A stretch of 64,000 nt of DNA from Candidatus Woesebacteria bacterium (GCA_035389185.1 DAOORK010000001.1:446218-510217); one strand, 5' to 3'. Shown: positions 1-52,826, counted from the stretch's first letter. The notes: generated by a model from the letters alone, not told the origin. Numbers and translations: made by a program.

Positions 1-40
1 ATTTTGACTAACCAGTGCATTGGTTATATCTTACCTTATA

Positions 41-64
41 CAAAAACCTCCCCGGGTGGGGAGG
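41..64 (-). terminator. intrinsic terminator (GC hairpin CCTCCCCGGGTGGGGAGG, U-run on - strand) after ORF 71..439
   Basis: perfect palindromic stem 47-64 centred on CCCGGG; A-run 41-46 on + gives U-run 3' of hairpin on - strand. Confidence 0.6.
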
Positions 65-70
65 AAGAAA

Positions 71-439
71 TTAGATATTGTTTATCATTAAGCAAGGGAC
101 ATAAATGACTTCTGTTTTTTTATTCCCTATGTCTATCAGCCATTGTTCAAGGACATCGGCAATCACTCTGATTTTTATGCAGTCAGTAAGCGACGGATCG
201 AAATAGACCATAATTGGCAAAAAGGTGTCCCTGCTATATGGTATTGAACCATCTTCGTGCCAGATGTCTTGGTTATGATGTATTTTCAGACTATAGTGGG
301 CACTACTGACACTGAAGTTACTTTCGTATTTCAATCCAGTCCTATCGCATATATTATTGATGAGTTCAAGCCTTTTAGTGTCGCCATCGCTGCTGATCGG
401 AATGCCGAGATTTTCCGGAAACTGAATCTTGAAATGCAT
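71..439 (-). CDS. hypothetical small acidic protein (122 aa), member of putative W/F-x-x-D-G small-protein family
   Basis: ORF with ATG preceded by AAGGAGG (revcomp of 445-451) at 5-nt spacing; own terminator downstream; no recognisable domain. Confidence 0.6.
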   Translation of the reverse strand: MHFKIQFPENLGIPISSDGDTKRLELINNICDRTGLKYESNFSVSSAHYSLKIHHNQDIWHEDGSIPYSRDTFLPIMVYFDPSLTDCIKIRVIADVLEQWLIDIGNKKTEVIYVPCLMINNI

Positions 440-478
440 TTATCCTCCTTGGAAAAGTGCGAATGGGCACATTATACC

Positions 479-506
479 AAAAACCCCGGAGCACCAGGGT
501 TTTGGG
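479..506 (-). terminator. possible terminator-like hairpin after rpsI (AAAACCC...GGGTTTT)
   Basis: imperfect inverted repeat ccaaaaacccc / gggttttggg between rpsI stop and next gene start. Confidence 0.3.
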
Positions 507-525
507 AAAGTATTGGTAATACTAA

Positions 526-1005
526 TTAACGTTTCGGAGACTGTTTCTTGGCACGAGCACGACCACCTTGACCGGCTTTTCTGGTTTCTTTCATACGAGA
601 GTCACGGGTTAGGAAACCACCATCACGCATGAGTTTCTTAAACTTGTCAGGATCAGCTTTGGTAAGAGCACGGCCGATACCATGGACAATAGCATTGGCT
701 TGAGCCACGGTGCCGCTACCTTCAACTTTGATACTTCCGGTGTATTGATTAAGAACATCACCGACGACAAAAGGAGCGTGAATCATTTTTTTGAGAGTAT
801 CACCTTTGAAATAAGTAGAAAGAGGTTTGCCATTAACGATTAACTCCGCTTTGCCTGGCCAAAGACGAACACGAGCGATAGCTGTTTTGCGGCGACCAAC
901 AGCGGAGAAATACTCCTTGGGCATGGCGAGAACTCCTTTTTTGACAGGAGTGGTCTTGACTGGTTTGACAGCAACTTTGGATTTTTTTGTTAGTTTTTGA
1001 GCCAT
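526..1005 (-). CDS. rpsI: 30S ribosomal protein S9 (uS9) with Lys-rich N-terminal extension
   Basis: motifs GRRKTAIARV, C-terminal GGRARAKKQSPKR typical of S9; 2 nt after rplM stop; alternative internal start at 924 (MPKEYF) possible. Confidence 0.9.
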   Translation of the reverse strand: MAQKLTKKSKVAVKPVKTTPVKKGVLAMPKEYFSAVGRRKTAIARVRLWPGKAELIVNGKPLSTYFKGDTLKKMIHAPFVVGDVLNQYTGSIKVEGSGTVAQANAIVHGIGRALTKADPDKFKKLMRDGGFLTRDSRMKETRKAGQGGRARAKKQSPKR

Positions 1006-1007
1006 AT

Positions 1008-1442
1008 TTATTTATCAGTTTTTTTGTTAAGACCTAGTTCAGTGGCGTAATTGTGTTTGTCATCGACAAACAATTTCAAACGTCTGAGCCTCCCCTGTTG
1101 ATGTTTATCTTTGGGAAGCATGCCTTTGACAGCTTTTTCGATCACTTTACGAGGATCCTTGGCCATCATCTGAGCGAGTGTAATTTCTTTAAGACCACCT
1201 GGATATCCAGAGTGTGAGTAATATATCTTGTCAGTCATTTTTTTGCCAGTGACCGTAATTTTGGCAGCATTGATAGCAACAACGTAATCTCCTTGATCAA
1301 GATGACCGGCGGTGAGGGCTTTACTCTTGCCCATTAATCGTTTGGCGATCTCCACTGCGGCACGGCCAAGAACTTGACCATCAAGATCAACGAGATGCCA
1401 GGCACGCTTAATATCGGTTGGTTTGAGTGTAGTGGTTTTCAT
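1008..1442 (-). CDS. rplM: 50S ribosomal protein L13 (uL13)
   Basis: WHLVDLDGQVLGRAA...SGYPGG; canonical rplM-rpsI pair. Confidence 0.93.
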   Translation of the reverse strand: MKTTTLKPTDIKRAWHLVDLDGQVLGRAAVEIAKRLMGKSKALTAGHLDQGDYVVAINAAKITVTGKKMTDKIYYSHSGYPGGLKEITLAQMMAKDPRKVIEKAVKGMLPKDKHQQGRLRRLKLFVDDKHNYATELGLNKKTDK

Positions 1443-1447
1443 AAGGG

Positions 1448-1867
1448 TTATTCAGTTTTCTTCTCTTTTTTAACTTCCTTTTTGACTTTTTTCTCTGCAA
1501 CCGGAGCTTGAGCAATTAGAGTGAGAGTGGCTAAAGAAACGGCATCACCTCTCTGGACAGAAACTTTTTGAATGGTGGTGAAACCACTTTTGCGTTCTCC
1601 CATAACAGGGATAATAGCATCAATAAGTCTGTTGGCTGTTTTGGGGGATCCGAGGGTAGCAGCAACGTTGCGACGGGAAGAGAGAGTTCCTTCGGTAGCC
1701 TTAGCGGCAAGCTTGTCAAACAAACGTTTGAGTATCTTGGCCTTGGTAACCGTGGTGGTTATTTTGCCATTCTCAATCAAGGCTTTAAGCTGAACTCTAA
1801 ATAGGGATTTTCTGGAGTTAGAGTCGCGATTGAGTTTGGGTATTTTTGATTGATGTCTGCGTCCCAT
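1448..1867 (-). CDS. rplQ: 50S ribosomal protein L17 (bL17) with Lys/Glu-rich C-terminal tail
   Basis: follows rpoA as in alpha operon; L17-like core (RRNVAATLGSPKTANRL), KKEVKKEKK tail. Confidence 0.88.
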   Translation of the reverse strand: MGRRHQSKIPKLNRDSNSRKSLFRVQLKALIENGKITTTVTKAKILKRLFDKLAAKATEGTLSSRRNVAATLGSPKTANRLIDAIIPVMGERKSGFTTIQKVSVQRGDAVSLATLTLIAQAPVAEKKVKKEVKKEKKTE

Positions 1868-1869
1868 AT

Positions 1870-2772
1870 TTATTCGATGTTAACGCCTTTTTCTTTGGCT
1901 TTCTCGACGACCTGCTGAGCAGATTTTTCACCGAGATTTTTGACCTTTTGGAGATCGGCAAAAGAGAGGGCTTTGAGATCTGATAATTTGTTGATGTTGG
2001 CTTTTTTGAGAGCGTTGAGCACACGAGTAGGAAGGTCAAGATCATCTACGAAACCGGCAGTTTCGATAACTGACTTGGATTTGACTTCCTTAATGTAAGC
2101 TTGCTCAGAGTTGACGTAGTCAAAGAAACCGGTAGCAATACGAGCGGCACTCTTGACTGCTTCTTCTGGAGTAACAGTACCGTTGGTGGTTAGAGCTAAA
2201 CGGACTTTGTCAAAGTTTGAAGAACGTCCGACACGTGCGGCTTCGACAATGTAGTTGGCTTTGATTACCGGAGAGAAAGAAGCGTCGAGCGGAATGACAC
2301 CGATTTCGTCGGTAGCATTGTCTTCAGCGGCAACATAACCCATTCCGTTGGCGACTGTGATCACGGCTGAAAGTTTGGCTTTGGCCGAAGTAAGGTGGCA
2401 AAGAACAACTTTGGGGTTGGCAATAGTGACGTTGGCAGGAAGTTCGATATCACTGGCTTTGACTTCAGTAATACCTGAGGCCTTAAGTTTAAGTTCAACT
2501 GGCTCTTCGGAATCAATGGAGAAGTTTAGAGTCTTAAGACTTAGAATGAGCTCTAAAATATCTTCTTTCATTCCGGCAAGAGTGGAGAATTGATGAGAAA
2601 CACCATCAATCTTGACACGAACGGCGGCGCCACCTTCGAGAGAGGTTAAAAGGACACGACGAAGAGAGTTACCAAGAGTGTGACCAAAATTTTGAGGAAG
2701 TGGTTCAATAATAACTTCGGCGGAGTTAACAGCGATATCTTTAACGGTGACTTTGAAATTGGGTTCTAACAT
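1870..2772 (-). CDS. rpoA: DNA-directed RNA polymerase subunit alpha (300 aa)
   Basis: N-terminal GHTLGNSLRRVLLTSLEG motif; C-terminal alphaCTD; position between rpsD and rplQ. Confidence 0.95.
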   Translation of the reverse strand: MLEPNFKVTVKDIAVNSAEVIIEPLPQNFGHTLGNSLRRVLLTSLEGGAAVRVKIDGVSHQFSTLAGMKEDILELILSLKTLNFSIDSEEPVELKLKASGITEVKASDIELPANVTIANPKVVLCHLTSAKAKLSAVITVANGMGYVAAEDNATDEIGVIPLDASFSPVIKANYIVEAARVGRSSNFDKVRLALTTNGTVTPEEAVKSAARIATGFFDYVNSEQAYIKEVKSKSVIETAGFVDDLDLPTRVLNALKKANINKLSDLKALSFADLQKVKNLGEKSAQQVVEKAKEKGVNIE

Positions 2773-2798
2773 TTTCTTTTGTACTAATTGCTAATTAA

Positions 2799-3422
2799 TT
2801 ACCTTGAGTAATACTCAATAATAAGATTTTCTTTAATATCACTGCCGATTTCGTCGCGAGTGGGAAGACGGTCAATTTTGCCTTCTGCACCTTTGCGAGA
2901 CAACCACTTGGCTGGAACACTTTTTTCGGTAAGGTTTGGAGAGACAAAGGTAAATTTGGTGGCTCTGTCGGTGAGTTTGATGGTTTGACCAGGTTTGGTT
3001 ATGTAAGAGGCAATGTCAATTTTTTTACCATTAACCAAGACATTTCCATGGGTGACAAGCTGACGAGCAAGAGAACGACTGGTAACGAGATTTAAACGGA
3101 AAACAGTATTGTCAAGACGAGACTCAAGAAGCTGCATCAGTACTTCACCAGTATTTTGAGCAGACTTAATAGCCGTTTCGTAGTATTTGTGGAATTGACT
3201 TTCGAGGACACCGTAGGTACGCTTGGCCTTCTGTTTTTCACGAAGCTGGATACCATAACCGGAAATACGGCCGTGAGTTCTTTTTTTGCCGTGTTGACCA
3301 GGAATCTGAGCACCTTTTTTCTCAATTGGACACTTAGAAGAGAAACAACGTTCTCCTTTTAAATAAAGCTTGACGCCTTCGCGGCGACAGAGTCTGCATT
3401 TTGGGTCGATGTATTTTGCCAT
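2799..3422 (-). CDS. rpsD: 30S ribosomal protein S4 (uS4)
   Basis: MAKYIDPKCRLCRREG...zinc-binding N-terminus, S4 domain; alpha operon order. Confidence 0.95.
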   Translation of the reverse strand: MAKYIDPKCRLCRREGVKLYLKGERCFSSKCPIEKKGAQIPGQHGKKRTHGRISGYGIQLREKQKAKRTYGVLESQFHKYYETAIKSAQNTGEVLMQLLESRLDNTVFRLNLVTSRSLARQLVTHGNVLVNGKKIDIASYITKPGQTIKLTDRATKFTFVSPNLTEKSVPAKWLSRKGAEGKIDRLPTRDEIGSDIKENLIIEYYSR

Positions 3423-3444
3423 ATATATATTTTCTTAGTGATTA

Positions 3445-3852
3445 TTAGACTCTTCTTGATTTTTTGGGACGACAACCGTTGTGAGGAATAGGTGTGGTGT
3501 CGGCCAACATATTAATTTCGATACCAGATGTCTTGAGAACACGAAGGGCGGCATCTTTGCCAGGACCGGGTCCTTTGAGGAAAACATCAACTGCTGTTAG
3601 ACCTAAGGATTTGGCTTTGCGGGTGCCTTCTTCGATGATGGTGGTTGCGGCGAAGGGAGTTGAACGTCTGGCACCTTTGAAACCGCAGGTTCCAGCTGAG
3701 CTCCAACAAATAACATCTCCGTTCATGTTGGTGAAAGAGACGTAGGTGGTGTTGAAAGTAGATTTGACGTACATTTTGCCTTGGCCACTTTTAAAGTGAA
3801 CCGTAGAGGCTTTTTTGGCTTTGGTGGTGACTTTTGTTTTTGTTTCTGGCAT
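3445..3852 (-). CDS. rpsK: 30S ribosomal protein S11 (uS11)
   Basis: GFKGARRSTPFAA...; operon position. Confidence 0.95.
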   Translation of the reverse strand: MPETKTKVTTKAKKASTVHFKSGQGKMYVKSTFNTTYVSFTNMNGDVICWSSAGTCGFKGARRSTPFAATTIIEEGTRKAKSLGLTAVDVFLKGPGPGKDAALRVLKTSGIEINMLADTTPIPHNGCRPKKSRRV

Positions 3853-3865
3853 GGTTATTTATGAA

Positions 3866-4264
3866 TTATTTCTTGGCGGCTTCAACCTTGGATGCGTCTT
3901 CTTTGGAGACGGCACCGATTGTCTTTCTCTTACCCTTGCGAGTACGAGCATTGGTGCGTGTTCTTTGACCATGAACGGGGAGCCCCATGGAATGACGAGA
4001 ACCACGATAGGCTTGAATTCTTTTTAATGTTTCAATGTTATTTCTGACAATTTGTCTCAGTTCACCTTCGGTAGGAAGAGTCTCAATGACAGATTGGATG
4101 CTTTTTAGTTCATCAGAAGTAAGATTTTTGGTTCGGATACTGGGATCAACCTTGGCTTGTTTGAGAATGTCTTTGGCGACCTTGTCTCCGATTCCAAAGA
4201 TATAGGTTAAAGCTATATCAATTCTTTTTTCGTTGGGGATGTCGATACCGGCTATTCTAGGCAT
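3866..4264 (-). CDS. rpsM: 30S ribosomal protein S13 (uS13)
   Basis: MPRIAGIDIPNEKRIDIALTYIFGIG N-terminus. Confidence 0.95.
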   Translation of the reverse strand: MPRIAGIDIPNEKRIDIALTYIFGIGDKVAKDILKQAKVDPSIRTKNLTSDELKSIQSVIETLPTEGELRQIVRNNIETLKRIQAYRGSRHSMGLPVHGQRTRTNARTRKGKRKTIGAVSKEDASKVEAAKK

Positions 4265-4278
4265 ATTATTTTTTACTA

Positions 4279-4392
4279 TTTATCCTTGACGCTGTTTGTG
4301 GCGGGGGTTGATACAAATAACCAACACCTTACCATGGCGTTTAATAATTTTGCAGTTTTTGCATCTAGGTCTTACAGACGATTGGACACGCA
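4279..4392 (-). CDS. rpmJ: 50S ribosomal protein L36 (bL36), 37 aa, not in ORF track (too short)
   Basis: hand translation of - strand: [38 protein letters not shown]-x2-C...C-x4-H zinc ribbon of L36; located between infA and rpsM as expected. Confidence 0.85.
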
Positions 4393-4456
4393 TGCGCGTT
4401 AAATTTTAGTTAATTAATGTTTTTGTATTATAAAGCAAACGGAAGAAGAAATGAGA

Positions 4457-4675
4457 TCAACCTTGCCGGTAAGTGATTCTGCCTTTGTCGGTGTCGTAGG
4501 GGCTCATTTCGAGCTTAACCTTGTCGCCGGGCATAACACGGATGCGATATAACCGCATCTTACCTGCAAGATGAGCCAAGATTTCTCTGCCGTCTTCGAG
4601 AGTCACCCGAAATTGTGTATTGGGTAAAGCCTCGGAAACGACTCCGTTTACCTCAGTCATCTGGTTTTTAGCCAT
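4457..4675 (-). CDS. infA: translation initiation factor IF-1
   Basis: 72 aa S1-like OB fold; [24 protein letters not shown]. Confidence 0.95.
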
Positions 4676-4680
4676 ATTTA

Positions 4681-4715
4681 GTTGTACGAGCGTTATTGTA
4701 CCAAAGATAGGTGCA
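4681..4715 (-). promoter_or_regulatory. possible extended -10 promoter (TGgTACAAT) for infA downstream of the inserted-cassette terminator
   Basis: - strand reads ...cttTGGTACAATaacgctcgtacaactaaatATG; weak -35; required because terminator at 4773-4799 isolates infA from map. Confidence 0.3.
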
Positions 4716-4772
4716 TTTTGCTAGTGCCTAGACACTGGTACAACTCGTAAAGATGATTTTACTATATAAAGC

Positions 4773-4799
4773 ACAAAAAAGCCTGACAATTAGTCAGGC
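4773..4799 (-). terminator. intrinsic terminator (GCCTGAC-AATT-AGTCAGGC + U-run on - strand) after ORF 4818..5201
   Basis: 7-bp perfect stem 4781-4799, A-run 4775-4780 on + strand. Confidence 0.7.
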
Positions 4800-4817
4800 T
4801 TTCAACTTTAAATTTTT

Positions 4818-5201
4818 TTAGAGCTTCATGATCTCATCGGTGAGCTTGTCAACTGCTTCATCGAACTGTTCTAAAAACGTCGTAAGGGCGTCAAGAATCT
4901 GTTCGAGTGAATAAATAACAATATCCCGATCTCTTTTACTACTTGGCGAAAGAAGATTTAGATAAGAGAGTGGCTCGTCGATGGCGTAGACCAGATTTAT
5001 CGTCTGGACTTCTGGATCGACAACCAAGATGTATGGATCGTCATCTTCAACTGACCAAAATAACTTGCCATCTTTTATCGAGATCAATTTGGAAGATAAA
5101 ACAAACATATTAAAAAATGGATGTTTGATAAGCTCTTTATACTTATCAAAAACTTCGTCAGGGAATCTTTCTGTTTCGGCTGGAATAGTTTTGGAATCCA
5201 C
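4818..5201 (-). CDS. hypothetical small acidic protein (127 aa) inserted between map and infA
   Basis: GTG start preceded by AGGAGG (revcomp 5207-5212) at 5 nt; own terminator; no recognisable domain; contains KLFWSVEDDDPY motif. Confidence 0.6.
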   Translation of the reverse strand: MDSKTIPAETERFPDEVFDKYKELIKHPFFNMFVLSSKLISIKDGKLFWSVEDDDPYILVVDPEVQTINLVYAIDEPLSYLNLLSPSSKRDRDIVIYSLEQILDALTTFLEQFDEAVDKLTDEIMKL

Positions 5202-5298
5202 GCTCTCCTCCTGTAGGAAGCAAAAATTAAATTGTCAATTGATGAGGTATGTTAGCACGAATATGCCTAAATGTCAAGTTATGGGATATATTTTGTGC

Positions 5299-6033
5299 CT
5301 AGTTTATGGCGGTGAGGATGATGGGGCCGTTCTGGGTGATATAGACGGTTTCTTCGAAATAGCCTGTTAAGGAGCCGTCTTGAGTGGAGATGGTCCAACC
5401 GTCTGGGTCTTCAACTAAGTGCCAGTCGCCCATGGCATACATGGTTTCAATGGCTATCGTCTGATCTACGGAAAGGATGTCTTTTTTATTTTGTTTGTCG
5501 GCAAAGCAGGGAATCCAAGGATCCATGTGGAGTTTGCGGCCGATACCATGGCCTGTGAGGTCACGAATTGAGCTAAAACCGGCCCCTTCGACCGTTTGCT
5601 GCATAGCCTGACTGATATCGTAAACCGTGTTCCCTGGCAAAGCTACAGCAATAGCAGCATTTTCCGCCTTCCTACCGACATCAAGGAAACCGGTTATTCT
5701 TGGATCAAGGGGGGGAATCTGAACGGTGATGGCAGTGTCAACATGATAGCCGTGATGAAAAAGTCCTAGATCAATTTTAACCACGTCTCCAGCTTTGAAG
5801 GGAGTCTTGTTGGGGATGCCGTGAACCATACCATCGTTAATGTTGATACAGGTGGCGTGATGATAGCCGGCCTCCATTTTGAAGGATGCTTTGTCTCCTC
5901 CTTCTTTGATTAGCCTATCGGCTAAAAATTCAATTTCCAGAGGAGTGACTCCAGCCTTAAGGGCGGCAACAAGTTGGCCTTTGATCCAGCCTAAACGGGC
6001 ACCACCTTCGGTCATGGCTTGAAGTTTTGTCAT
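5299..6033 (-). CDS. map: methionine aminopeptidase type I
   Basis: pita-bread fold motifs (GDVVKIDLG, metal-binding His/Asp/Glu pattern); 4-nt overlap with adk as in spc/alpha cluster. Confidence 0.93.
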   Translation of the reverse strand: MTKLQAMTEGGARLGWIKGQLVAALKAGVTPLEIEFLADRLIKEGGDKASFKMEAGYHHATCININDGMVHGIPNKTPFKAGDVVKIDLGLFHHGYHVDTAITVQIPPLDPRITGFLDVGRKAENAAIAVALPGNTVYDISQAMQQTVEGAGFSSIRDLTGHGIGRKLHMDPWIPCFADKQNKKDILSVDQTIAIETMYAMGDWHLVEDPDGWTISTQDGSLTGYFEETVYITQNGPIILTAIN

Positions 6034-6602
6034 ACAGCGTATTTTACGCCTGAATCGAGCTTATTGCAGATTTCCTTGAAAATTGTGTCGATATCAGGAG
6101 TGCCATCAATAACAAGGAGTTTCCCTTCCTGACGATATCTTTCCACGACAGGAAGAGTTTCTCTTTCGTAGATACTGAGTCTTTCGGTAATGGCTTCCGG
6201 TGTGTCATCGGTACGGTGTTCAATTTTAGCTCTTTTTGAAAGTCTTTCAAAACTAATTTCTCGGGGAATTTCCAAAAGAATAACCTTGTCGATATTGATT
6301 TTGTTTTGCGAAAGAAACCAGTCGAGGTATTCGGATTGACGAAGATCTCTAGGTGTACCATCGAGGATAAAACCTTTTGACGATTTAAGTTTGGGTTCGA
6401 GGACTTCAAAAATGGTATCAAACGGTACTAAGGCTCCAGACTCGAGTATTTTGGCGATGATTTTGCCTTTTTTACTGCCGCTTTTGGTTTCGGCTCGGAG
6501 AAGGTCGCCGGCAGAGATATGAATTAGACCATATTTTTCTGCAATCAGTTTGGCTTGAGTACCCTTGCCGGACCCTTGAGGACCAAGAATAATTAAATTC
6601 AT
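6030..6602 (-). CDS. adk: adenylate kinase
   Basis: P-loop GPQGSGKGTQA; position secY-adk-map. Confidence 0.93.
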   Translation of the reverse strand: MNLIILGPQGSGKGTQAKLIAEKYGLIHISAGDLLRAETKSGSKKGKIIAKILESGALVPFDTIFEVLEPKLKSSKGFILDGTPRDLRQSEYLDWFLSQNKINIDKVILLEIPREISFERLSKRAKIEHRTDDTPEAITERLSIYERETLPVVERYRQEGKLLVIDGTPDIDTIFKEICNKLDSGVKYAV

Positions 6603-6604
6603 AG

Positions 6605-7888
6605 TTAATCCAAGAACTTATCGTAACTGTACATATAGAGCTGTGAGTTAACAGACTTGAGAATTTCGAGCACAACCGAGACAACAATGAGAATACTGGT
6701 ACCCCCCATTGAGAGAGAGGTGATACTAGTTGCCTTGGAGATAATCGAGGGGAAAATAGCCACGAGACCGAGGAAACCGGCACCAACTAAAGTAATCCTT
6801 TTGAGAACGAAATTTAAGTAGTCGACGGTGTTGGGCCCTGGACGGATACCGGGGATAAAAGAGCCTGAAGAACGAAGATCTTTGGCAATTTTTTCCGGGT
6901 TAAAAACCACGGCAGTATAAAAATAAGTAAAGGCAACAACCAGAAAGAAATAAATACCGTTGTAAACGGGACTGCCGGAAGCAAAAAGATTGTTGAGAGA
7001 GTTAGCAAAATTGACAACTCCCGGATTGTTAACATTTGCCAGTACCCGACTGAGAAGACTGGGAATGAGCATAAAAGAGACGGCAAAAATAATGGGGATG
7101 ACGCCTGCTTGGTTTAAGCGAAGAGGTAGTGACCCTCCCGAAACAGCACTGTAGGAGGCTTGGCCTCGACGAGCGGACTGGATCGGAATTTCTCTTGTGG
7201 CTTCACCAACACGGACAATGGCGTAAACGGCGGCTAAAGCAAAGATGAAGAAGATTAGATAGGAGAAAATCTTGGTTTGATCCATGGCGGTAAAGGTCTG
7301 AACTACATCGATTGGCAAACGGCAGACAATACCAACAAAGATGATCATGCTGATGCCATTTCCCAACCCGTAGTCGTTGAGCTGTTCTCCAAGCCAGATT
7401 AAAAGACAGGTACCGGCGGCAAGAGTAAAGATAATTGAAGCTAATTGAAGTGGGTCGGCCGTTGTTACCAGGTTTTCTTTGTTTAGAATAAAAACGATAG
7501 CGAAAGCCTGAAGGAAACACAAGGGAACGGTGAGAAGACGAGTGTATTGATTGATTTTTTGACGACCGTAGTCCCCTTCTTTTTGGAGGGCTTCCAGTTT
7601 GGGAATTACCATACCCAACATCTGAATAATAATGGAGGCATTGATGTATGGATTGAGACCGAGAGCCATAATGGAGAAGTTTCCCATGGTACCGCCGGAG
7701 AAAATATCGAGAAGGGAAAGAACTGCCGAGGAATCAAAAAGGTTTCTTAGGGCAACAAGATTGATTCCCGGAGCCGGGATATGAGCAATTAAACGAAAAA
7801 TGGCAATAATAATGGCCGTAAAAATCAGACGACGACGAAGGTCTTTGATTTTCAAAACTGCACGAAGGGGTGCTAATAAATTGTTCAT
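6605..7888 (-). CDS. secY: preprotein translocase subunit SecY (start trimmed to internal [14 protein letters not shown])
   Basis: 10 TM segments, SecY signature; ORF track start 7966 adds 26 non-SecY residues overlapping the terminator hairpin, so ATG at 7888 preferred. Confidence 0.92.
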
Positions 7889-7955
7889 TGGTTTTATTTT
7901 AACAGTTTGCTTTGGATAGAATAGGCAAGAAAGGATTTTACAACAAATTGAGAAT

Positions 7956-7980
7956 AAAAAAACCACCCCGGGAGGGGTGG
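7956..7980 (-). terminator. intrinsic terminator (CCACCCCGGGAGGGGTGG + U-run on - strand) after ORF 7988..8479
   Basis: perfect palindrome 7963-7980; A7 run 7956-7962; near-identical to hairpin at 47-64. Confidence 0.7.
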
Positions 7981-7987
7981 TAAAAAC

Positions 7988-8479
7988 TTAATTGGAATCA
8001 ATGATACGGATGATATTTGATGCATTTTCACTGTCTATAATGACTGTCGGGGAAAGCTCTTCAATGTCGAGTGTGTGAAAATACTGGTTAAAAAATTCGT
8101 TTAATTTTGCTTTGGTTTCCTTGCTATCTTCTTCGAGTGGATCACGAAGGTGAGCTGTTAAGTACTCTTGTTCTTTTTTCTCAATTATTTCAGAAAAATC
8201 AGGGTTGGTAATACAGATTTTGTTTCCCAGGCGAAGGAGCAGTCGATTTCCGAGATTAAGAATTTTTTCCGATGACTCTGTGCTAAGGATATCTCCAATT
8301 TTCTTAAGCGCAGGATACAATTTTGAGGCAATATCGGCATTATTCTCCGAAAAATGAACAACATCTCCATCTGAATCGTATAGGTAGACTTGCGGAAACC
8401 AAGAGCTGACGTCTATTGCCGGTAAGATCTGAATAAAACCTTTTGATAAAGCAAAGCGAAACGCTTCTTTTTTCTCCAT
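7988..8479 (-). CDS. hypothetical acidic protein (163 aa), paralog of 8558..8935, inserted between rplO and secY
   Basis: ATG preceded by AAGGAG; shares SSWFPQVYLYDSDGD motif with neighbour (NWFPDVRLYDWQGN); own terminator. Confidence 0.65.
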   Translation of the reverse strand: MEKKEAFRFALSKGFIQILPAIDVSSWFPQVYLYDSDGDVVHFSENNADIASKLYPALKKIGDILSTESSEKILNLGNRLLLRLGNKICITNPDFSEIIEKKEQEYLTAHLRDPLEEDSKETKAKLNEFFNQYFHTLDIEELSPTVIIDSENASNIIRIIDSN

Positions 8480-8523
8480 GTTACTCTCCTTATGTTAAGT
8501 TACTTTTGAGGGGAATTATACAT

Positions 8524-8554
8524 TAAAAAAAGCTACCTCGGGTGGGGTGGTAAG
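8524..8554 (-). terminator. degenerate copy of the CCCGGG-type hairpin terminator after ORF 8558..8935
   Basis: A8 run 8524-8531 then CTACCTCGGGTGGGGTGGTAAG; matches element at 7963-7985 at about 20 of 23 positions. Confidence 0.45.
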
Positions 8555-8557
8555 AAC

Positions 8558-8935
8558 TCAAATTTTTTCGATGGCTTTGACGAGGGCTTCTGCTGCTTCG
8601 CTATCAATTGTGATAAGCGAGTTTTTTATGCGTTCTGATTTATTCGTTTCTTTTGGAAACAGGTAAAGAAAGCCTGCGATAACAGCAAAGGTGAGTTCGT
8701 CGAAGTCACTAGAAAAATCATCAATGTCACGATCGGTGTGATTTCGACTATCAAAAGAACCAAGAAAGGTTTCTTTTAGAACGTCATAAAGACGCAAAAC
8801 ATCAGATTTCACCATCCAAACGGTTTGATTTCCTTGCCAATCATAGAGGCGAACGTCCGGAAACCAGTTGTCTCTATCACCATGAGGCTCAGAAACAATG
8901 GCATAACCGTCAGTTAAAACGATCTTTTGTGCCAC
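8558..8935 (-). CDS. hypothetical acidic protein (125 aa), paralog of 7988..8479
   Basis: GTG start preceded by AAGGAGG (revcomp 8941-8947); WFP-x-V-x-LYD motif shared with neighbour. Confidence 0.65.
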   Translation of the reverse strand: MAQKIVLTDGYAIVSEPHGDRDNWFPDVRLYDWQGNQTVWMVKSDVLRLYDVLKETFLGSFDSRNHTDRDIDDFSSDFDELTFAVIAGFLYLFPKETNKSERIKNSLITIDSEAAEALVKAIEKI

Positions 8936-8977
8936 TTATCCTCCTTTATATTTTAAGTTGCTTTATGGGATTGTACC

Positions 8978-9006
8978 AAAAAAAGACCCCTTGGGGGGTC
9001 TTTTTT
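8978..9006 (-). terminator. bidirectional hairpin terminator (GACCCCTTGGGGGGTC flanked by A-run and T-run) after rplO
   Basis: stem 8985-9000; A7 upstream, T6 downstream. Confidence 0.65.
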
Positions 9007-9021
9007 AGTTTTAAATTTTAG

Positions 9022-9471
9022 TTACTTAGAAAAGGTGTATTTGCCGCCAGCTTTTTCGATAGCTTTGATAGCTCCGGCCGTGGCAAGAACATTAATCTCA
9101 AGTGCTTTCTCAAGTTTGCCGGTCTGGACTATCTTAAAGCCACGTTTGGCTTCTTTGTCGCTGATTTTTAAGATTTTTATTAGAGCTGTGGCATCGACTA
9201 TTGCTTTGTCTTCAAAATATTTGGAAAGAATATCAAAGTTGACGACAATAGGCTGGAGTTTAATGACTTGGAAGCGGTGTTTACCTTTGATAAAAGGGGT
9301 ACGGCGAACAATAGGTAGCTGACCACCTTCAAACCAGAGAGGCATGGTGCCACGAGTCTTTTGACCTTTTTGGCCACGGCCGACAGTGTGACCGCCAACT
9401 CCTGAGCCATATCCACGTCCAAGACGTTTTTTGCTGGTTTTGGTTGATTTAGGAAGATTTGACAATAACAT
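9022..9471 (-). CDS. rplO: 50S ribosomal protein L15 (uL15)
   Basis: Gly/Arg-rich N-terminus GRGYGSGVGGHTVGRGQKGQKTRG. Confidence 0.93.
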   Translation of the reverse strand: MLLSNLPKSTKTSKKRLGRGYGSGVGGHTVGRGQKGQKTRGTMPLWFEGGQLPIVRRTPFIKGKHRFQVIKLQPIVVNFDILSKYFEDKAIVDATALIKILKISDKEAKRGFKIVQTGKLEKALEINVLATAGAIKAIEKAGGKYTFSK

Positions 9472-19025: not shown

Positions 19026-21146
19026 TTATGCCGGATTTTTCAATAACTTCGCGGCTAGACTGTTTGGTAACTCTTGATAGTGACTGGGTTCCATGTAGTA
19101 AGAAGCACGTCCAGCAGTAAGTGAGCGAATAGCGGTTGAGTAAGCGGAGAGCTCGGAGAGAGGAACTTCAGCGGTAATGACACGAGCATTTCCTCGCTGG
19201 GTTGTTCCACCAATTTGAGCACGGCGAGAGGATAGATCACCGATAATGTCACCCATGTTGGCTTCCGGAGTGGTTACTTCGACCTTCATAATAGGTTCAA
19301 GAACTACAGGACCGGCATTCTTGACAGCATCTTGAAGAGCCATGGATCCAGCAATCTTGAAGGACATTTCGGAAGAGTCAACTTCGTGGTAGGAACCATC
19401 GACAACAGCGACATCGAGATCAACCATGGGGAAACCGGCAATAATACCGTTATCAAGCGCTTCGCGGACACCTTTTTCGATAGGACTAATGAATTCTTTG
19501 GGAATGGATCCTCCAACAATTTTATTGGTAAAGGTGAAACCTTCGCCACGAGATTTAGGAGTAACGACCAAAACGGCGTGACCATACTGACCGCGACCAC
19601 CGGATTGACGAATGTATTTTCCTTCACCTCTGGCCTCTTTGGTAATGGTTTCACGGTAAGCGACTTGAGGAGCACCGGTAGTAGCGTCGACTTTAAATTC
19701 ACGACGAAGACGGTCGACCAGGATTTCTAGGTGAAGCTCGCCCATACCGGAGATAACGGTTTGACCAGTTTCTTGGTTGGTTTTGATCTTGAAAGTTGGA
19801 TCTTCTTCGGCAAGACGACCTAAAGCAAGATCGAGTTTTTCCTGATCAGCTTTGGTTTTTGGCTCAATAGCAAGAGAGATAACTGGATCTGGGAACTCGA
19901 TAGATTCGAGAACTATTGGATGACCTTCATCACAAAGAGTGTCACCTGTTTTGGTAGCTCTAAGACCCACAACGCCTACGATTTCTCCTGCACCGACTTC
20001 GGGAATTTCTTCACGAGAGTTTGCGTGCATGAGCATTAAGCGTCCAATACGTTCTTTTTCTGCTTTACTGGCATTGTAAACATAAGAACCGGCTGAGATC
20101 TTGCCAGAGTAAACACGAACATAGGTGAGTTTACCGACATGGGGATCAGCCTGAATCTTGAAGGCTAGACCAGAAAAGGGTTCAGCCGGATCAGGTTTGC
20201 GAACTTCAGGTTCGTTAGTTTTGGGGTTTGTGCCTTGGGTATCTTCGATATCTAAAGGTGAAGGAAGGAAGTCAACAACAGCGTCGAGGACCGGCTGAAC
20301 ACCTTTGTTGCGAAGACATGAACCAGGGAAAACAGGAACTATGAGGTTGCCTATTGTGGCAACACGAAGAGCAGTTTTGAGTTCAGAGATAGAGAGTTCC
20401 TCGCCATTGAGGTATTTCTCCATCAATTTTTCATCGTTTTCAACAATAGACTCAATAAGCTTGGCGCGTTCGGATTCACATTGATCAGCTATGTCGGATG
20501 GGAAGCCTTCAAGAATATCGTATTTTGCACCAGTTTCGTCTCCCTGCCAGATAAGATGTTTCTTTTCGAGCAGAAGGGCGATACCTTTAAAGGTATTTTC
20601 AACACCGATAGGAAGAGCCATGATGGCTGTCTTGGCTCCAAGTTTTTCGTGGACGTCTTTAATGGTAGCCATAAAATCAGCACCCAAAACGTCCATTTTG
20701 TTGATTAGAGCGATACGAGGAACTTTGTATTTGTCAGCCTGACGCCAAACAGTTTCAGTTTGAGACTGAACACCGGAACCGGCATCAAGAACGATAATAC
20801 CGCCATCAAGAACACGCAAGGAACGCTCAACTTCAGCAGTGAAGTCAACGTGCCCTGGAGTATCGATAATGTTGAAACGGCATTCCTCTTTGAGATTAGA
20901 ATCAGGAAGAACAGGGGTCCAGAAAGTGGTGGTTGCGGCGGAAACGATAGTGATACCACGCTCACGTTCTTGGTCCATCCAGTCCATTTGGGTGTCACCC
21001 TCGTCGATGTCACCGATTTTGTATGTTTTGCCGGTATAGAAAAGAATACGTTCTGTGGTAGTAGTTTTACCAGCATCGATATGGGCGATAATACCAATAT
21101 TTCTCACACGACTGAGAGGGATTTGTTTCGAGACGGCTGCAGCCAT
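19026..21146 (-). CDS. fusA: elongation factor G
   Basis: [20 protein letters not shown]; 706 aa. Confidence 0.97.
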
Positions 21147-23695: not shown

Positions 23696-24172
23696 TTACC
23701 AACGGAAGTGAGCGAAGGCTTTATTGGCTTCGGCCATCTTGTGAGTGTCGAGTTTCTTCTTGATAGCTGCACCGGTGTTTTCATGGGCTTCCATGATTTC
23801 GGCTGCAAGTTTGTCGGCTAAGGTTCTTGTGGGGTTGTTGGAACGGGCCTTAGCGGCGGCAATAATCCAACGGATAGCAAGAGTGTCGCGACGCTCGGGA
23901 CGAATGGGAGAAGGTACTTGATATGAAGCACCACCTACACGACGAGAACGAACTTCAATGGTGGGTTTAACGTTTTCGATAGCTTCAGAAAGGTACTCCA
24001 AACCATCCTTACCTGATTGTTCGGCGATAAGTTCGATAGCTTTATAGATTTGTTTGGCAGCGACGGATTTTTTGCCATCGAGCATACAACCGTTGATGAT
24101 TTTGGCAACCAACTGACTACCGTAAATCGGATCGGTTTGTACTTTTTTGGCGGGGGTTTTCTTTGATCTCAT
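23696..24172 (-). CDS. rpsG: 30S ribosomal protein S7 (uS7)
   Basis: PDPIYGSQLVAKIINGCMLDGKKSVA; str-operon position after rpsL. Confidence 0.95.
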   Translation of the reverse strand: MRSKKTPAKKVQTDPIYGSQLVAKIINGCMLDGKKSVAAKQIYKAIELIAEQSGKDGLEYLSEAIENVKPTIEVRSRRVGGASYQVPSPIRPERRDTLAIRWIIAAAKARSNNPTRTLADKLAAEIMEAHENTGAAIKKKLDTHKMAEANKAFAHFRW

Positions 24173-44167: not shown

Positions 44168-44364
44168 AACAATTTTTATTTAATTACTAAACTGATCAAT
44201 ACAGCCGCGCTGCTTGAACACGCCAACAAAAAGCTGGCTTACTTAAATTCATTTTACACTTACTAAGGAAATTGTTTGGGGACCGGAGCTGCAATATAAA
44301 ACTCTTGGGTAACTAACGCTATCTTAGTCAAAGTCTAAACGTAATATGGGGTTATTATACACTA

Positions 44365-44398
44365 AAAGAAAACCCCGCTGATTAGCGGGGCTTGTTTT
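44365..44398 (-). terminator. hairpin terminator (CCCCGCTG-ATTA-GCGGGG) after ORF 44412..44699
   Basis: stem 44373-44390; A-rich 5' on + strand (U-run on -), T-run 3' as well. Confidence 0.6.
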
Positions 44399-44411: not shown

Positions 44412-44699
44412 TTATTCTCTAGCTCTTGTGAGAACACCTCTTGTCTCTAAGGCAATATAGATCATCGACTTCATTAACTTTTGTTCGGGTGACCCACTCT
44501 TTGCAATCTCCTCTAAGTTAACTAATTTCCACCCTTTGTTCTCCTTGTCAGCGTTAATTTCACCTGCACTCACAAAGTAATGATCAAACAATTCGTTTGG
44601 TTTAGTGATAAAAATAGCTTCATTTTCTTTGACAACAACACCAAACGTATCTCCAGTCTCAGACGTGAAACTATCTCCAACTTCAAACACAATCTTCAT
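44412..44699 (-). CDS. hypothetical small acidic protein (95 aa)
   Basis: ATG preceded by GGAGGA 4 nt upstream; own terminator; no recognisable domain. Confidence 0.6.
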   Translation of the reverse strand: MKIVFEVGDSFTSETGDTFGVVVKENEAIFITKPNELFDHYFVSAGEINADKENKGWKLVNLEEIAKSGSPEQKLMKSMIYIALETRGVLTRARE

Positions 44700-44787
44700 T
44701 TAATCCTCCAAAATTTCAAAGAATGTTATTGCTTTCTGCTGCTGGTATTGTAATATCCCGAACGTGAAATGTCAAGCTATAGGGTAG

Positions 44788-52474: not shown

Positions 52475-52786
52475 GTGACAACGAGGGAAGAGGCAGAAAA
52501 GTTGGACCCTGATGTGATTTTTTGGGTGGATGGGAAGACAATTATCCCTGATGACGATATCCCAAAAGCATTGGAGATCAACTCTCAGCTAAGAAAAACC
52601 GATTCTCGGAAACGAGCTCGAGCGATTTTCAGCCAGGATGCGGTTGTCGCAACTGGGTTATGGACACCAGAAGAAGCTGGTGATGTGGCTGATCGGATGA
52701 TTTTTGGATTAGGTGGTGAATATGTGGATCCAAAAGAAAACATTTTTCGGAGACTGTTGCGCCGCTTGGGTTTTCCTCAATATTAG
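52475..52786 (+). CDS. hypothetical small acidic protein (103 aa), GTG start
   Basis: AGGAGG 4 nt upstream of GTG; followed by strong terminator; contains DPDVIFWVDGKTIIPDDD motif like other cassette proteins. Confidence 0.55.
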   Translation: MTTREEAEKLDPDVIFWVDGKTIIPDDDIPKALEINSQLRKTDSRKRARAIFSQDAVVATGLWTPEEAGDVADRMIFGLGGEYVDPKENIFRRLLRRLGFPQY

Positions 52787-52798
52787 TATTTCCGAATT

Positions 52799-52826
52799 GA
52801 CCTGATTAATCAGGTCTTTTTTTTTA
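52799..52826 (+). terminator. intrinsic terminator GACCTGATTAATCAGGTC + T9
   Basis: 8-bp stem then nine-T run. Confidence 0.8.

What the first reader, a model, noticed from the sequence alone, without database searches (positions are those of the whole stretch)
71..8935. Loosely related family of small acidic 'cassette' proteins scattered at operon junctions (71..439, 4818..5201, 7988..8479, 8558..8935, also 52475..52786 and possibly 44412..44699)
Five to six ORFs of 95-163 aa are acidic and carry a strong SD. Each is bracketed by its own hairpin terminator. Their N-termini show an aromatic-Trp ... Asp-x-x-Gly stretch: DIWHEDGSIPY, KLFWSVEDDDPY, SSWFPQVYLYDSDGD, NWFPDVRLYDWQGN, DVIFWVDGKTIIPDDD. 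They interrupt otherwise textbook syntenies. If they are homologous, this would be a multi-copy lineage-specific family behaving like mobile single-gene cassettes, and candidate immunity or anti-defence-like small proteins. The similarity is weak and judged by eye only.
Basis: inference. Interest (0 to 1): 0.55.

Follow-up and report, generated by a model that had tools for sequence, protein, structure and literature searches.

The report
Orphan gene cassettes between core operons
The six small acidic proteins are not one family: they are mostly unrelated, lineage-specific orphan genes, each a self-contained promoter-gene-terminator unit, sitting in gaps between core operons that in this CPR clade (Collierbacteria-like) are hot spots where such units are gained, lost, duplicated and swapped.

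Summary
All six ORFs are real, acidic (pI 4.3-5.4) and each has a promoter-like -10 box, a consensus SD and a downstream hairpin terminator. The proposed shared family is not supported. Only C (7988-8479) and D (8558-8935) are homologous; they are tandem paralogues (E 3.7e-8 against a profile built without C). B belongs to a different small Collierbacteria-restricted family. A and F are strict ORFans. E is a vertically inherited lineage gene. None matches Pfam, NCBIfam, PADLOC or PHROGs.

The "cassette" intuition is partly right. In 25 related genomes the normally fixed rplO-secY junction holds 555-6327 bp (1-10 ORFs), against 13-169 bp in 29 outgroups. The map|infA, rpsI| and other junctions vary too; 171 gap ORFs fall into 80 families.

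The C unit, from promoter to terminator, is 95-100% identical to a genome whose flanking secY is 75% identical (dS 0.07 vs 1.46 for rplO). The similarity breaks exactly at two copies of a conserved hairpin, ACCACCC-loop-GGGTGGT-T5. In the DNA examined this hairpin follows ORFs of at least 9 unrelated families and occurs almost only in rplO|secY islands.

Best reading: MGE-poor recombination hot spots carrying orphan accessory genes. Protein functions remain unknown.

The parts
71..439 (-). ORF A, 122 aa, pI 5.4. Strict ORFan inserted between rpsI and a PGA_cap gene.
   Evidence: It matches only itself among 5.8e9 proteins (cluster size 1). L153 shows rpsI-A-PGA_cap, and relatives hold nothing or other genes at this junction. 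Coding evidence is the weakest of the six: its codon score ties with the antisense frame.
42..64 (-). Terminator hairpin after A (CCTCCCCACCCGGGGAGG-T5). Same loop as the T hairpin but a different stem.
471..503 (-). rpsI terminator (479-503) abutting the extended -10 box TGGTATAAT (471-479) of A. SD at 444-450.
   Evidence: An orthologous terminator is present in L002 and L007.
4818..5201 (-). ORF B, 127 aa, pI 4.3. Member of a small Collierbacteria-restricted family. Here it lies in the map|infA slot; elsewhere the family is mostly in rplO|secY islands as tandem or fused copies.
   Evidence: Family of 11 ORFs in the loci; 20 clusters in 5.8e9 proteins; 19 representatives in 1.84e9, one of them spurious. 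An ortholog at 77% identity sits in the same slot in L147-L150, dN/dS 0.34.
5249..5277 (-). Promoter-like site of B (TTGACA-17-TAACAT). SD at 5205-5212.
4775..4803 (-). Terminator of B (GAAAGCCTGAC-TAATT-GTCAGGCTTTTTT).
   Evidence: Conserved only at the orthologous position in L147-L150.
8558..8935 (-). ORF D, 125 aa, pI 4.6. C/D family, first gene after rplO.
   Evidence: Family alignments A1 and A5. Homologues occupy the same position in L002, L003, L006 and L031. Against L152: dN/dS 0.28, dS 0.137, versus rplO dS 0.54. AF2 model has pLDDT 78, but in only 1 of 5 models.
8970..9006 (-). rplO terminator (8978-9006, palindromic) abutting the extended -10 box TGGTACAAT of D (8970-8978). SD at 8940-8946.
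   Evidence: Conserved in L152.
8525..8551 (-). T hairpin copy after D, degenerate here (ACCACCCCACCCGAGGTAGC-T7) but intact in L152. It marks the left boundary of the C cassette.
7988..8479 (-). ORF C, 163 aa, pI 4.8. Tandem paralogue of D with an insertion of about 40 aa.
   Evidence: D-type profile built without C finds C at E 3.7e-8. Against L145/L146: 94.9% nt identity, dS 0.067, dN/dS 0.74, while secY is 74.9% identical and rplO dS is 1.46.
8486..8522 (-). Promoter (TGTATAAT, 8515-8522), 5' UTR and SD (8486-8491) of C. 51/51 nt identical to L145 and L146.
7956..7981 (-). T hairpin after C (ACCACCCC-TCCC-GGGGTGGT-T7). It marks the right boundary of the C cassette. The secY promoter-like TGTAAAAT (7935-7942) and the secY ATG (7888) follow.
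52475..52786 (+). ORF E, 103 aa, pI 5.0. Lineage-restricted but vertically inherited small gene between the HD-domain gene and nusA, on the opposite strand. Terminator at 52799-52823.
   Evidence: Orthologs in the same slot in L130 (75% aa identity over the full length; 74% by tblastn) and L076 (49%). dN/dS 0.10 and dS 1.78, similar to the neighbouring HD gene (dS 2.03). Terminator conserved in L067, L076 and L130.
44412..44699 (-). ORF F, 95 aa, pI 5.05. ORFan in the variable junction between the Lon-like AAA gene and RNase J. Promoter at 44747-44775, terminator at 44364-44392.
   Evidence: Its cluster holds 3 near-identical members. No homolog in 80 NusA-anchored loci, where this gap varies from 222 to 2357 bp. 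Coordinates.

Best explanation
The six ORFs have heterogeneous origins. There is one tandem paralogue pair (C/D), one member of a separate small family (B), two ORFans (A, F) and one ordinary lineage-specific gene (E). What they share is architecture and location, not ancestry.

Each is an autonomous transcription unit: an extended -10 or -35/-10 promoter, a consensus SD, a short ORF and an intrinsic terminator. Each lies in a gap between core operons. In this Collierbacteria-like clade those gaps (rplO|secY above all, then map|infA, rpsI|, secY|adk, lonL|rnj and others) are turnover hot spots. They fill with co-oriented, mostly orphan genes that are gained, lost, duplicated in tandem and exchanged between species.

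Shown here:
- The junctions are hypervariable.
- The occupants are unrelated.
- Terminators insulate them from the r-protein operons.
- The C unit was exchanged recently and precisely, from one hairpin to the next.

Inferred:
- Exchange occurs by recombination of taken-up DNA. The conserved terminator hairpin/promoter junctions (and, for larger swaps, the flanking core genes) would serve as the homology.
- No dedicated mobile-element machinery is involved.
- The proteins are non-enzymatic, fast-evolving cytoplasmic accessory proteins. My best guess is binding proteins used in conflict or host interaction (about 0.3). For C/D this may involve a PUR/Whirly-like (bbbba)x2 fold.
For: Homology tests:
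- Only C and D are related (E 3.7e-8 against a profile lacking C).
- B family vs C/D family gives hhalign probability 0.6%. A, E and F match nothing.

Rarity:
- The C/D profile finds 5 clusters in 5.8e9 proteins.
- The B family has 20 clusters and 19 representatives in 1.84e9.
- A finds only itself.

Hot spots:
- The rplO-secY gap is 555-6327 bp (median 2336, n=25) in the clade, against 13-169 bp (median 26, n=29) in outgroups.
- map-infA is 60-7910 bp. Neighbouring r-protein junctions are invariant.
- There are 1-10 ORFs per rplO|secY island, 93-96% co-oriented.
- 171 gap ORFs fall into 80 families, 58 of them singletons.
- Junctions around nusA...rnj and rpsI|PGA_cap vary as well.

Insulation: terminator-like hairpins follow 40-50% of gap ORFs, 42% of rplO and 57% of rpsI, but 0-3% of other core genes.

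Exchange:
- C promoter 51/51 identical and C ORF 94.9% identical (dS 0.067), against secY 74.9% identical, rplO dS 1.46 and rpsE dS 0.97.
- The high-identity HSP ends inside the T-run of one hairpin and at the last base of the next.
- In L145 the D slot holds an unrelated 183-aa membrane ORF.
- Other cassettes are also younger than their flanks: dS 0.07 vs 0.94-1.37, 0.35 vs 1.12, 0.38 vs 1.37. D has dS 0.137 against rplO 0.54.

Coding: dN/dS is 0.34 (B), 0.28 (D) and 0.10 (E). The in-frame codon score is the best frame for 5 of 6 ORFs, yet lower than for native small genes, as expected for foreign or young genes.

Framework: hot spots without mobile elements that diversify by recombination are described in PMC5635113.
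Against: - Only one cassette (C) gives a clean two-sided breakpoint. The other low-dS cases are one-sided or limited by contig ends.
- The C tract does not extend into the flanking core genes, as the classical 'double crossover in core genes' model predicts. It ends at 24-nt hairpins, which is very short homology for RecA-type exchange.
- Most comparison sequences are MAG or metagenome contigs. However, L145 and L146 come from different samples, agree with each other, and differ from the window by 5%, which argues against chimeric assembly.
- Function is not established for any of the six.
- The D fold rests on 1 confident model of 5 and on TM scores of about 0.5. The B model failed (pLDDT 43).
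- Competence for DNA uptake in this organism is assumed from general knowledge of CPR genomes and was not checked here.
Confidence: 0.68

Rival explanations
1. One reading: all five or six proteins are diverged members of one lineage-specific family that spreads as single-gene cassettes.
For: All are small, acidic and similarly packaged. C and D are indeed paralogues. The B family is multi-copy in other genomes, with three tandem copies in L024 and fused two-domain forms. It is remotely linked to three other island families: hhalign 83% and 56% directly, and 85% via the first of these.
Against: No pair other than C-D reaches significance by BLASTP, phmmer clustering, hhalign (0.6% or less) or HMM search. 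The quoted motif is low-information. E is vertically inherited at the pace of its neighbour.
Confidence: 0.04
2. The rplO|secY island is a site-specific cassette array, analogous to an integron or to hairpin-recognising HUH/Y1 systems. The conserved hairpin ACCACCC-loop-GGGTGGT-T5 would be the recombination site, recognised as a folded strand by a recombinase encoded elsewhere. Units of promoter-ORF-hairpin would be inserted 3' of an existing hairpin.
For: The same hairpin, with compensatory stem changes, follows ORFs of at least 9 unrelated families 5-24 nt after the stop. There are up to 3 copies per island, in one orientation, across species whose synonymous sites are saturated. In the DNA examined it is nearly confined to rplO|secY islands. 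Other terminators are conserved only at orthologous single positions. The C exchange tract runs exactly hairpin to hairpin. In L006 an IS200-type Y1 transposase element sits immediately 3' of one copy.
Against: No integrase or recombinase lies in or next to any island. The larger island ORFs that were scanned are peptidase-, Rieske-, methyltransferase- or KilA-N-like, plus one IS. The hairpin is a 20-nt canonical terminator, not an attC-like site of 57 nt or more. The cassettes carry their own promoters. The L006 IS has its own, different end hairpins. Only one precise exchange was seen. Gene conversion, or selection for an efficient terminator, could homogenise the copies. No copies were found in 2.9 M viral contigs beyond chance.
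Confidence: 0.12
3. Purely vertical history: an ancestral multi-gene island decayed differentially, and its genes evolve so fast that homology is lost. No horizontal exchange is needed.
For: D-like genes hold the same first position after rplO in the window, L002, L003, L006 and L031 but are only 27-36% identical. The DUF2284 gene sits directly before secY in 11 loci. Most shared cassette pairs have saturated dS like their flanks. B and E orthologs stay in the same slots.
Against: It cannot explain C at dS 0.067 beside rplO at 1.46, nor the other three low-dS cassettes. It cannot explain the replacement of D by an unrelated gene in L145. It also cannot explain B's family lying in rplO|secY elsewhere but in map|infA here.
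Confidence: 0.12
4. The genes are functional partners of the ribosome or Sec machinery, for example CPR-specific ribosome-associated or SecY-associated factors, and sit in the operon for co-regulation.
For: They are located and co-oriented within the S10-spc-alpha cluster. CPR ribosomes lack uL30, and the rpsE-rplO gap here is 5 nt (PMC9297842).
Against: No family is universal in the slot. The window lacks the commonest one (DUF2284), and 58 of 80 families are singletons. Terminators and separate promoters uncouple them from the operon. Equally variable slots exist at junctions unrelated to translation.
Confidence: 0.05

Closest known systems
Horizontal-transfer hot spots flanked by core genes and lacking recognisable mobile elements (Oliveira et al. 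2017, PMC5635113)
   Same: Variable gene content sits between conserved core genes and turns over rapidly among relatives. Integrases and transposases are mostly absent (one IS200 in 32 islands). There is evidence of recombinational exchange.
   Different: The hot spot lies inside the r-protein/secY cluster, where 29 outgroup genomes keep rplO and secY 13-169 bp apart. The units are single genes, each with its own promoter and terminator. The one resolved exchange ends at conserved 24-nt hairpins rather than within the flanking core genes.
Integron gene-cassette arrays (ORF + attC)
   Same: Co-oriented arrays of unrelated, mostly orphan single-gene units. Each ends in a related hairpin-forming element that marks the unit boundary.
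   Different: No intI gene is present. There is no attI/attC architecture, since the element is a 20-nt perfect stem-loop with a T-run, that is, an intrinsic terminator. The cassettes have their own promoters.
IS200/IS605 elements and their non-autonomous hairpin-bounded derivatives (PATE/REP-type); named from general knowledge
   Same: Directly repeated, similar hairpins flank a mobile segment. An IS200-like Y1 transposase occurs in one island right after a hairpin copy.
   Different: That IS carries different end hairpins. No Y1 transposase was seen in the window or in the other islands. The left hairpin is not part of the exchanged C segment.
PUR-alpha / Whirly-like (bbbba)x2 nucleic-acid-binding fold (PDB 8cht)
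   Same: The predicted secondary-structure order of D is b4-a-b4-a. The best Foldseek PDB hit has probability 0.99 and TMq 0.49-0.56. Similar small uncharacterised phage proteins match at TM about 0.5.
   Different: No sequence similarity. No detectable internal repeat. The protein is acidic rather than basic. The model is confident in only 1 of 5 runs.
Tandem arrays of diverged immunity-type paralogues in polymorphic-toxin loci (e.g. SUKH/Imm families); a resemblance from general knowledge
   Same: The B family occurs as tandem, highly diverged copies and two-domain fusions of about 125-aa acidic proteins.
   Different: No Pfam immunity family matches any of 10 members, even at E <= 10. No toxin gene is adjacent. 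The window has a single copy.

Membership tests
   Only C-D is related. B family vs C/D family gives hhalign probability 0.6%. A, E and F are unlinked.
C/D family (new, unnamed) | Conserved N-terminal G[FY]AIV...WFP..(L/F)(Y/F).xxG(N/D) and C-terminal (S/x)L(V/I)xID(S/x)xxA...(I/L) motifs; position in the rplO|secY island | tested here: met
   Alignments A1 and A5 have invariant W24, F25, P26, G35, D111 and A115. C is found at E 3.7e-8 by a profile that excludes it. All members lie between rplO and secY.
B family (new, unnamed) | Profile match over about 125 aa with the central aromatic-W/F...Y.(V/I)(D/N) hairpin motif | tested here: met
   B clusters with 10 ORFs by phmmer. Profile searches recover 20 and 19 clusters. 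B lacks the C-terminal NPxxYxPGxCFSxC tail that most members have.
Integron cassette array | Adjacent intI tyrosine recombinase and attI site | tested here: not met
   No recombinase was found among island ORFs or among the core genes between rpsH and rpsI. The large ORFs were scanned. Whole genomes were not examined.
Integron cassette array | attC sites: imperfect inverted repeats of about 57-141 nt with R/L boxes and extrahelical bases | tested here: not met
   The element is a 7-8 bp perfect stem, a 4-6 nt loop and a T-run, about 24 nt in all.
Integron cassette array | Unrelated, co-oriented ORFs that each end in a related boundary element | tested here: met
   The hairpin follows at least 9 unrelated families and 96% of ORFs are co-oriented.
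MGE-free HGT hot spot (PMC5635113) | An interval between two core genes with high gene turnover among related genomes | tested here: met
MGE-free HGT hot spot (PMC5635113) | Elevated homologous recombination in the flanking core genes | tested here: inconclusive
   In the C case the recombinant tract stops at the hairpins and secY/rplO are not included. D plus its intergenic regions are more similar than rplO in L152. No population-level test was possible.
IS200/IS605-type or PATE element | Y1 (HUH) transposase acting on the element's own subterminal hairpins | tested here: not met
   There is one Y1_Tnp gene (L006), and its end hairpins differ from the island hairpin. None is present in the window or the other loci.
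Intrinsic (Rho-independent) terminator | GC-rich stem-loop followed by a T-run, just after a stop codon, with the stem maintained by compensatory change | tested here: met
   It lies 5-24 nt after stops. Variants such as A..T to C..G, and ACCATCC/GGATGGT, keep the pairing. Termination activity itself was not tested.
PUR / Whirly-like fold | Two bbbba repeats forming one domain; basic nucleic-acid-binding surface | tested here: inconclusive
Known defence / anti-defence / phage protein families | Match to PADLOC, PHROG or Pfam models | tested here: not met
   No hit better than E 0.007 for the six. Island family representatives also lack PADLOC hits, apart from a DUF559-like nuclease.

The most novel reading that the evidence does not exclude
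The rplO|secY island of Collierbacteria is a previously undescribed, integrase-independent cassette system. A conserved 24-nt terminator hairpin would double as the recombination site. Through it, self-expressed single-gene units (promoter-ORF-hairpin) of unrelated orphan families would be inserted, duplicated and exchanged between species, inside the most conserved gene cluster of the genome.
Probability: 0.12. Interest if true: 0.8.

Novelty: new variant of a known kind. Interest (0 to 1): 0.45.

Why it matters
The rplO-secY adjacency was unbroken in all 29 outgroup genomes examined, and is widely regarded as one of the most stable gene neighbourhoods in prokaryotes. It is often used as a fixed landmark for binning and phylogenomics of uncultured bacteria.

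In a whole CPR clade this junction is instead the genome's most plastic spot. It holds up to ten mostly orphan genes, and at least one hairpin-to-hairpin exchange has occurred between species. This gives a concrete, alignable locus for studying how tiny, reduced genomes acquire and test new genes.

It also offers a short list of candidate accessory proteins (the C/D and B families) that are under selection. Finally, it is a caution that contigs anchored on r-protein markers can carry strain-variable cargo. If the hairpin proves to be a recombination site, this would be a new cassette mechanism.

Tried and rejected
- **One family.** Tested with BLASTP (word size 2), phmmer clustering, hhalign among 25 island families, and an HMM search. 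Rejected.
- **Shared Trp...DxxG motif.** Regex frequency and shuffling show it is uninformative.
- **Known-family assignment.** Pfam, NCBIfam, PADLOC and PHROGs were searched, as were PDB sequence profiles. Nothing was found.
- **Structure of B.** AF2 on a 15-sequence alignment gave pLDDT 43 and was unusable, so no fold search was run on it.
- **Hairpin as a known RNA.** No Rfam family reached its gathering score anywhere in the window. At E <= 1, window 1-9100 gave one weak chance hit elsewhere.
- **Hairpin in viral contigs.** One match in 2.9 M contigs, which is chance level.
- **Hairpin as the end of the IS200-like element in L006.** Rejected, because that IS has its own different hairpins.
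- **Islands as defence islands.** No PADLOC support.
- **Structured RNA in the 244-nt gap after F.** z-score 0.09, rejected.
- **Literature.** No paper was found describing a variable rplO|secY junction in CPR.

Full report
**What is there.** The window is a conserved stretch of a CPR genome. Public records call it 'Candidatus Woesebacteria bacterium' (proteins HOX96243 and others). By SecY identity (71-80%) it groups with Collierbacteria MAGs.

The S10-spc-alpha ribosomal cluster runs on the minus strand. They are acidic, with pI 4.3-5.4. Each has a promoter-like -10 box (often TG-extended and abutting the previous terminator's T-run), a consensus SD and a downstream GC-stem/T-run hairpin. 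A, C and D also have a hairpin upstream. B, E and F have one only downstream.

In-frame codon scores are the best frame for five of the six; A ties with its antisense frame. All six score lower than the native small genes.

**Are they one family? No.**
- All-against-all BLASTP gives only C-D (30% over 56 aa, E 1e-3).
- I clustered the six with 243 ORFs taken from the same junctions in 31 related genomes. C and D fall together with ORFs from L002, L003 and L006. B falls into a different 11-member family. A, E and F remain singletons.
- Profile-profile comparison gives 0.6% probability for B family vs C/D family, and nothing for A, E or F.
- An HMM of D-type sequences that excludes C finds C at E 3.7e-8 and a further member in L031. 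It finds none of A, B, E or F at E <= 10.
- The quoted Trp...DxxG motif follows 13% of all Trp residues in the other proteins of the window. It arises in 2-29% of shuffles.
- None of the six matches Pfam, NCBIfam, PADLOC or PHROGs.

**How rare are they?**
- The C/D profile finds 5 clusters in 5.8 billion proteins.
- The B profile finds 20 clusters. An exhaustive HMMER pass over 1.84 billion representatives finds 19, one of them a spurious repeat protein.
- A finds only itself.
- The F cluster has three near-identical members, and F has no homolog in 80 NusA-anchored loci.
- E has orthologs in the same HD|nusA slot in L130 (75% aa identity over the full length; 74% by tblastn) and L076 (49%). 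It evolves like its neighbour: dN/dS 0.10, dS 1.78 vs 2.03. It is therefore an ordinary vertically inherited lineage gene.
- B's ortholog (77% identity) stays in map|infA in four metagenome contigs, with dN/dS 0.34.
- D vs L152 gives dN/dS 0.28.

B, D and E are therefore real genes under purifying selection. C is a real family member, but its dN/dS of 0.74 over a very short divergence is noisy.

**The junctions are the real story.** I anchored on SecY across one genome per species.
- The rplO-secY gap is 555-6327 bp (median 2336, n=25) in the Collierbacteria-like clade.
- It is 13-169 bp (median 26, n=29) in outgroups, including other Microgenomates.
- map-infA ranges from 60 to 7910 bp, and secY-adk from 2 to 2191 bp. 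Junctions such as rpsD-rpoA (27-36 bp) are fixed.
- The rplO|secY islands hold 1-10 ORFs and the map|infA islands 0-5. Of these, 93-96% are on the operon strand.
- The 171 ORFs fall into 80 families, 58 of them singletons.
- A few are recognisable (DUF2284, M28-like peptidase, methyltransferase, Rieske, KilA-N, ABC transporter, one IS200 transposase). Most are not. There are no PADLOC matches of note.
- A sits between rpsI and a PGA_cap gene. That junction is empty in L003 and holds other genes elsewhere.
- Junctions around nusA...RNase J vary as well: lonL|rnj 222-2357 bp, pnp|lonL 24-1905 bp.
- Terminator-like hairpins follow 40-50% of gap ORFs, 42% of rplO and 57% of rpsI, but 0-3% of other core genes.

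The cluster is thus cut into separate transcription units at exactly these points.

**Evidence for cassette exchange.** C's closest relative (P0004) lies on contigs L145 and L146, from two different JGI samples.

| Segment (window vs L145) | Identity or dS |
|---|---|
| C promoter and 5' UTR | 51/51 identical |
| C ORF | 94.9% nt, dS 0.067 |
| secY coding, immediately downstream | 74.9% nt |
| rplO | dS 1.46 |
| rpsE | dS 0.97 |

The high-identity tract begins in the T-run of the hairpin upstream of C. It ends at the last base of the hairpin downstream. In L145 the position of D is taken by an unrelated 183-aa membrane ORF.

D and its intergenic regions are 94% identical to L152, where rplO is 87% identical (dS 0.137 vs 0.54). 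In L152 D's terminator is intact, whereas the window copy is degenerate.

Three more cassette pairs in other genomes have dS of 0.07-0.38 beside flanks at 0.9-1.9. Most shared cassettes, however, are as diverged as their flanks.

**The hairpin.** The terminators after C and D are copies of one element: ACCACCC(C/T)-loop-GGGTGGT-T5.
- With 5 or fewer mismatches it occurs about 30 times in 20 loci, up to three times per island, always in gene orientation.
- Three weak matches in the NusA loci and the partly similar terminator after A are the only occurrences outside rplO|secY islands.
- The stem is kept by compensatory changes.
- It follows ORFs of at least 9 unrelated families, 5-24 nt after the stop. 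The copy before secY is followed by a conserved TGGTGTAAAAT promoter.
- Other terminators (those of B, rplO, rpsI and E) are conserved only at single orthologous positions in close relatives.
- It matches no Rfam family and is absent from viral contigs beyond chance.
- In L006 an IS200-like element lies immediately 3' of one copy but uses different end hairpins.

**What the proteins might do.** AF2 failed for B (pLDDT 43).

For D, one of five models is confident (pLDDT 78, pTM 0.73), with topology b4-a-b4-a. Foldseek's best PDB match is the two-repeat PUR domain of human PURA (probability 0.99, E 7.6e-3, TMq 0.49-0.56). The best viral matches are uncharacterised phage proteins of about 125-136 aa (TM about 0.5). 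There is no sequence support, no detectable internal repeat, and the protein is acidic. I treat the fold as a lead only.

The B family forms tandem and fused copies in other genomes (three in a row in L024). Most members, but not B itself, end in NPxxYxPGxCFSxC.

**Interpretation.** The best-supported account is as follows. These are unrelated, lineage-restricted accessory genes packaged as autonomous promoter-ORF-terminator units. They sit in recombination-permissive junctions between core operons. This is a CPR version of the hot spots without mobile elements described by Oliveira et al. (PMC5635113).

Two features are unusual. The main hot spot splits rplO from secY. And a conserved terminator hairpin delimits the units and coincides with the one resolved pair of exchange breakpoints.

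Whether that hairpin is merely portable homology, or a terminator homogenised by gene conversion, or a true recombination site, cannot be decided here. I give the last option about 12%. The immunity or anti-defence idea is not excluded but has no direct evidence.

**Verdict.** Individually the genes are ordinary orphans. The locus-level pattern is a moderately interesting new variant of a known kind.

Noticed in passing
window 21268-23325 (-): A 685-aa DEAH/HrpA-like helicase (Pfam DEAD, Helicase_C, HA2, OB_NTP_bind) lies between rpsG (23696-24172) and fusA (19026-21146). This is another interruption of a textbook operon (str).
   Followed up: partly
L006 8719-9320: An IS200-like element (Y1_Tnp, E 6.5e-26) with its own left and right end hairpins is inserted immediately 3' of a T-hairpin copy inside the rplO|secY island. 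It is the only recognisable mobile element seen in 32 islands.
   Followed up: yes
L001, L002, L003, L010, L012, L014, L016, L019, L020, L023, L027 (directly upstream of secY in most): A DUF2284 'predicted metal-binding' gene (about 165-190 aa) is the most frequent occupant of the rplO|secY slot (11 loci). In several loci no terminator separates it from secY. It is absent from the window.
   Followed up: partly
map|infA slot of 16 loci (e.g. L008 13297-13704): A 22-member orphan family (114-186 aa, no Pfam or PADLOC hit) dominates the map|infA slot in relatives, often as tandem pairs. It is not present in the window, where B occupies the slot.
   Followed up: partly
L024 6043-7262; L016 8742-9809; L021 7759-8814; L028 919-1740: B-family genes occur as three tandem paralogues or as fused two-domain proteins. 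They are followed in a conserved order by family c13, an M28-like peptidase and a 237-420-aa charged protein (c06) before secY.
   Followed up: partly
window 10004-9471 (rpsE-rplO junction): Only 5 nt separate rpsE and rplO, so there is no uL30 gene. Outgroups have about 275 nt there. This is consistent with the reported loss of uL30 in CPR (PMC9297842).
   Followed up: no
L027 13982-14549; L028 9995-10769: By eye, a pair resembling a BrnT/BrnA toxin-antitoxin module sits in the map|infA island of two genomes. The antitoxin-like gene is 84% identical between them although the flanks are saturated.
   Followed up: no
L013 12013-12375 vs L015 3814-4176 (adk|map slot): A 120-aa orphan gene is 95% identical (dS 0.07) between two species whose adk and secY have dS of 0.94 and 1.37. 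L015 also has an extra 285-aa membrane gene between secY and adk.
   Followed up: partly
window 44168-44363 (-): The long (244-nt) gap between F and RNase J looked structured, but it folds no better than shuffled sequence (z = 0.09).
   Followed up: yes
L001-L031 record titles: Several MAGs carrying this Collierbacteria-type locus are labelled 'uncultured Pseudomonadales' or 'Spirochaetia' in their public titles. These labels are probably wrong.
   Followed up: no
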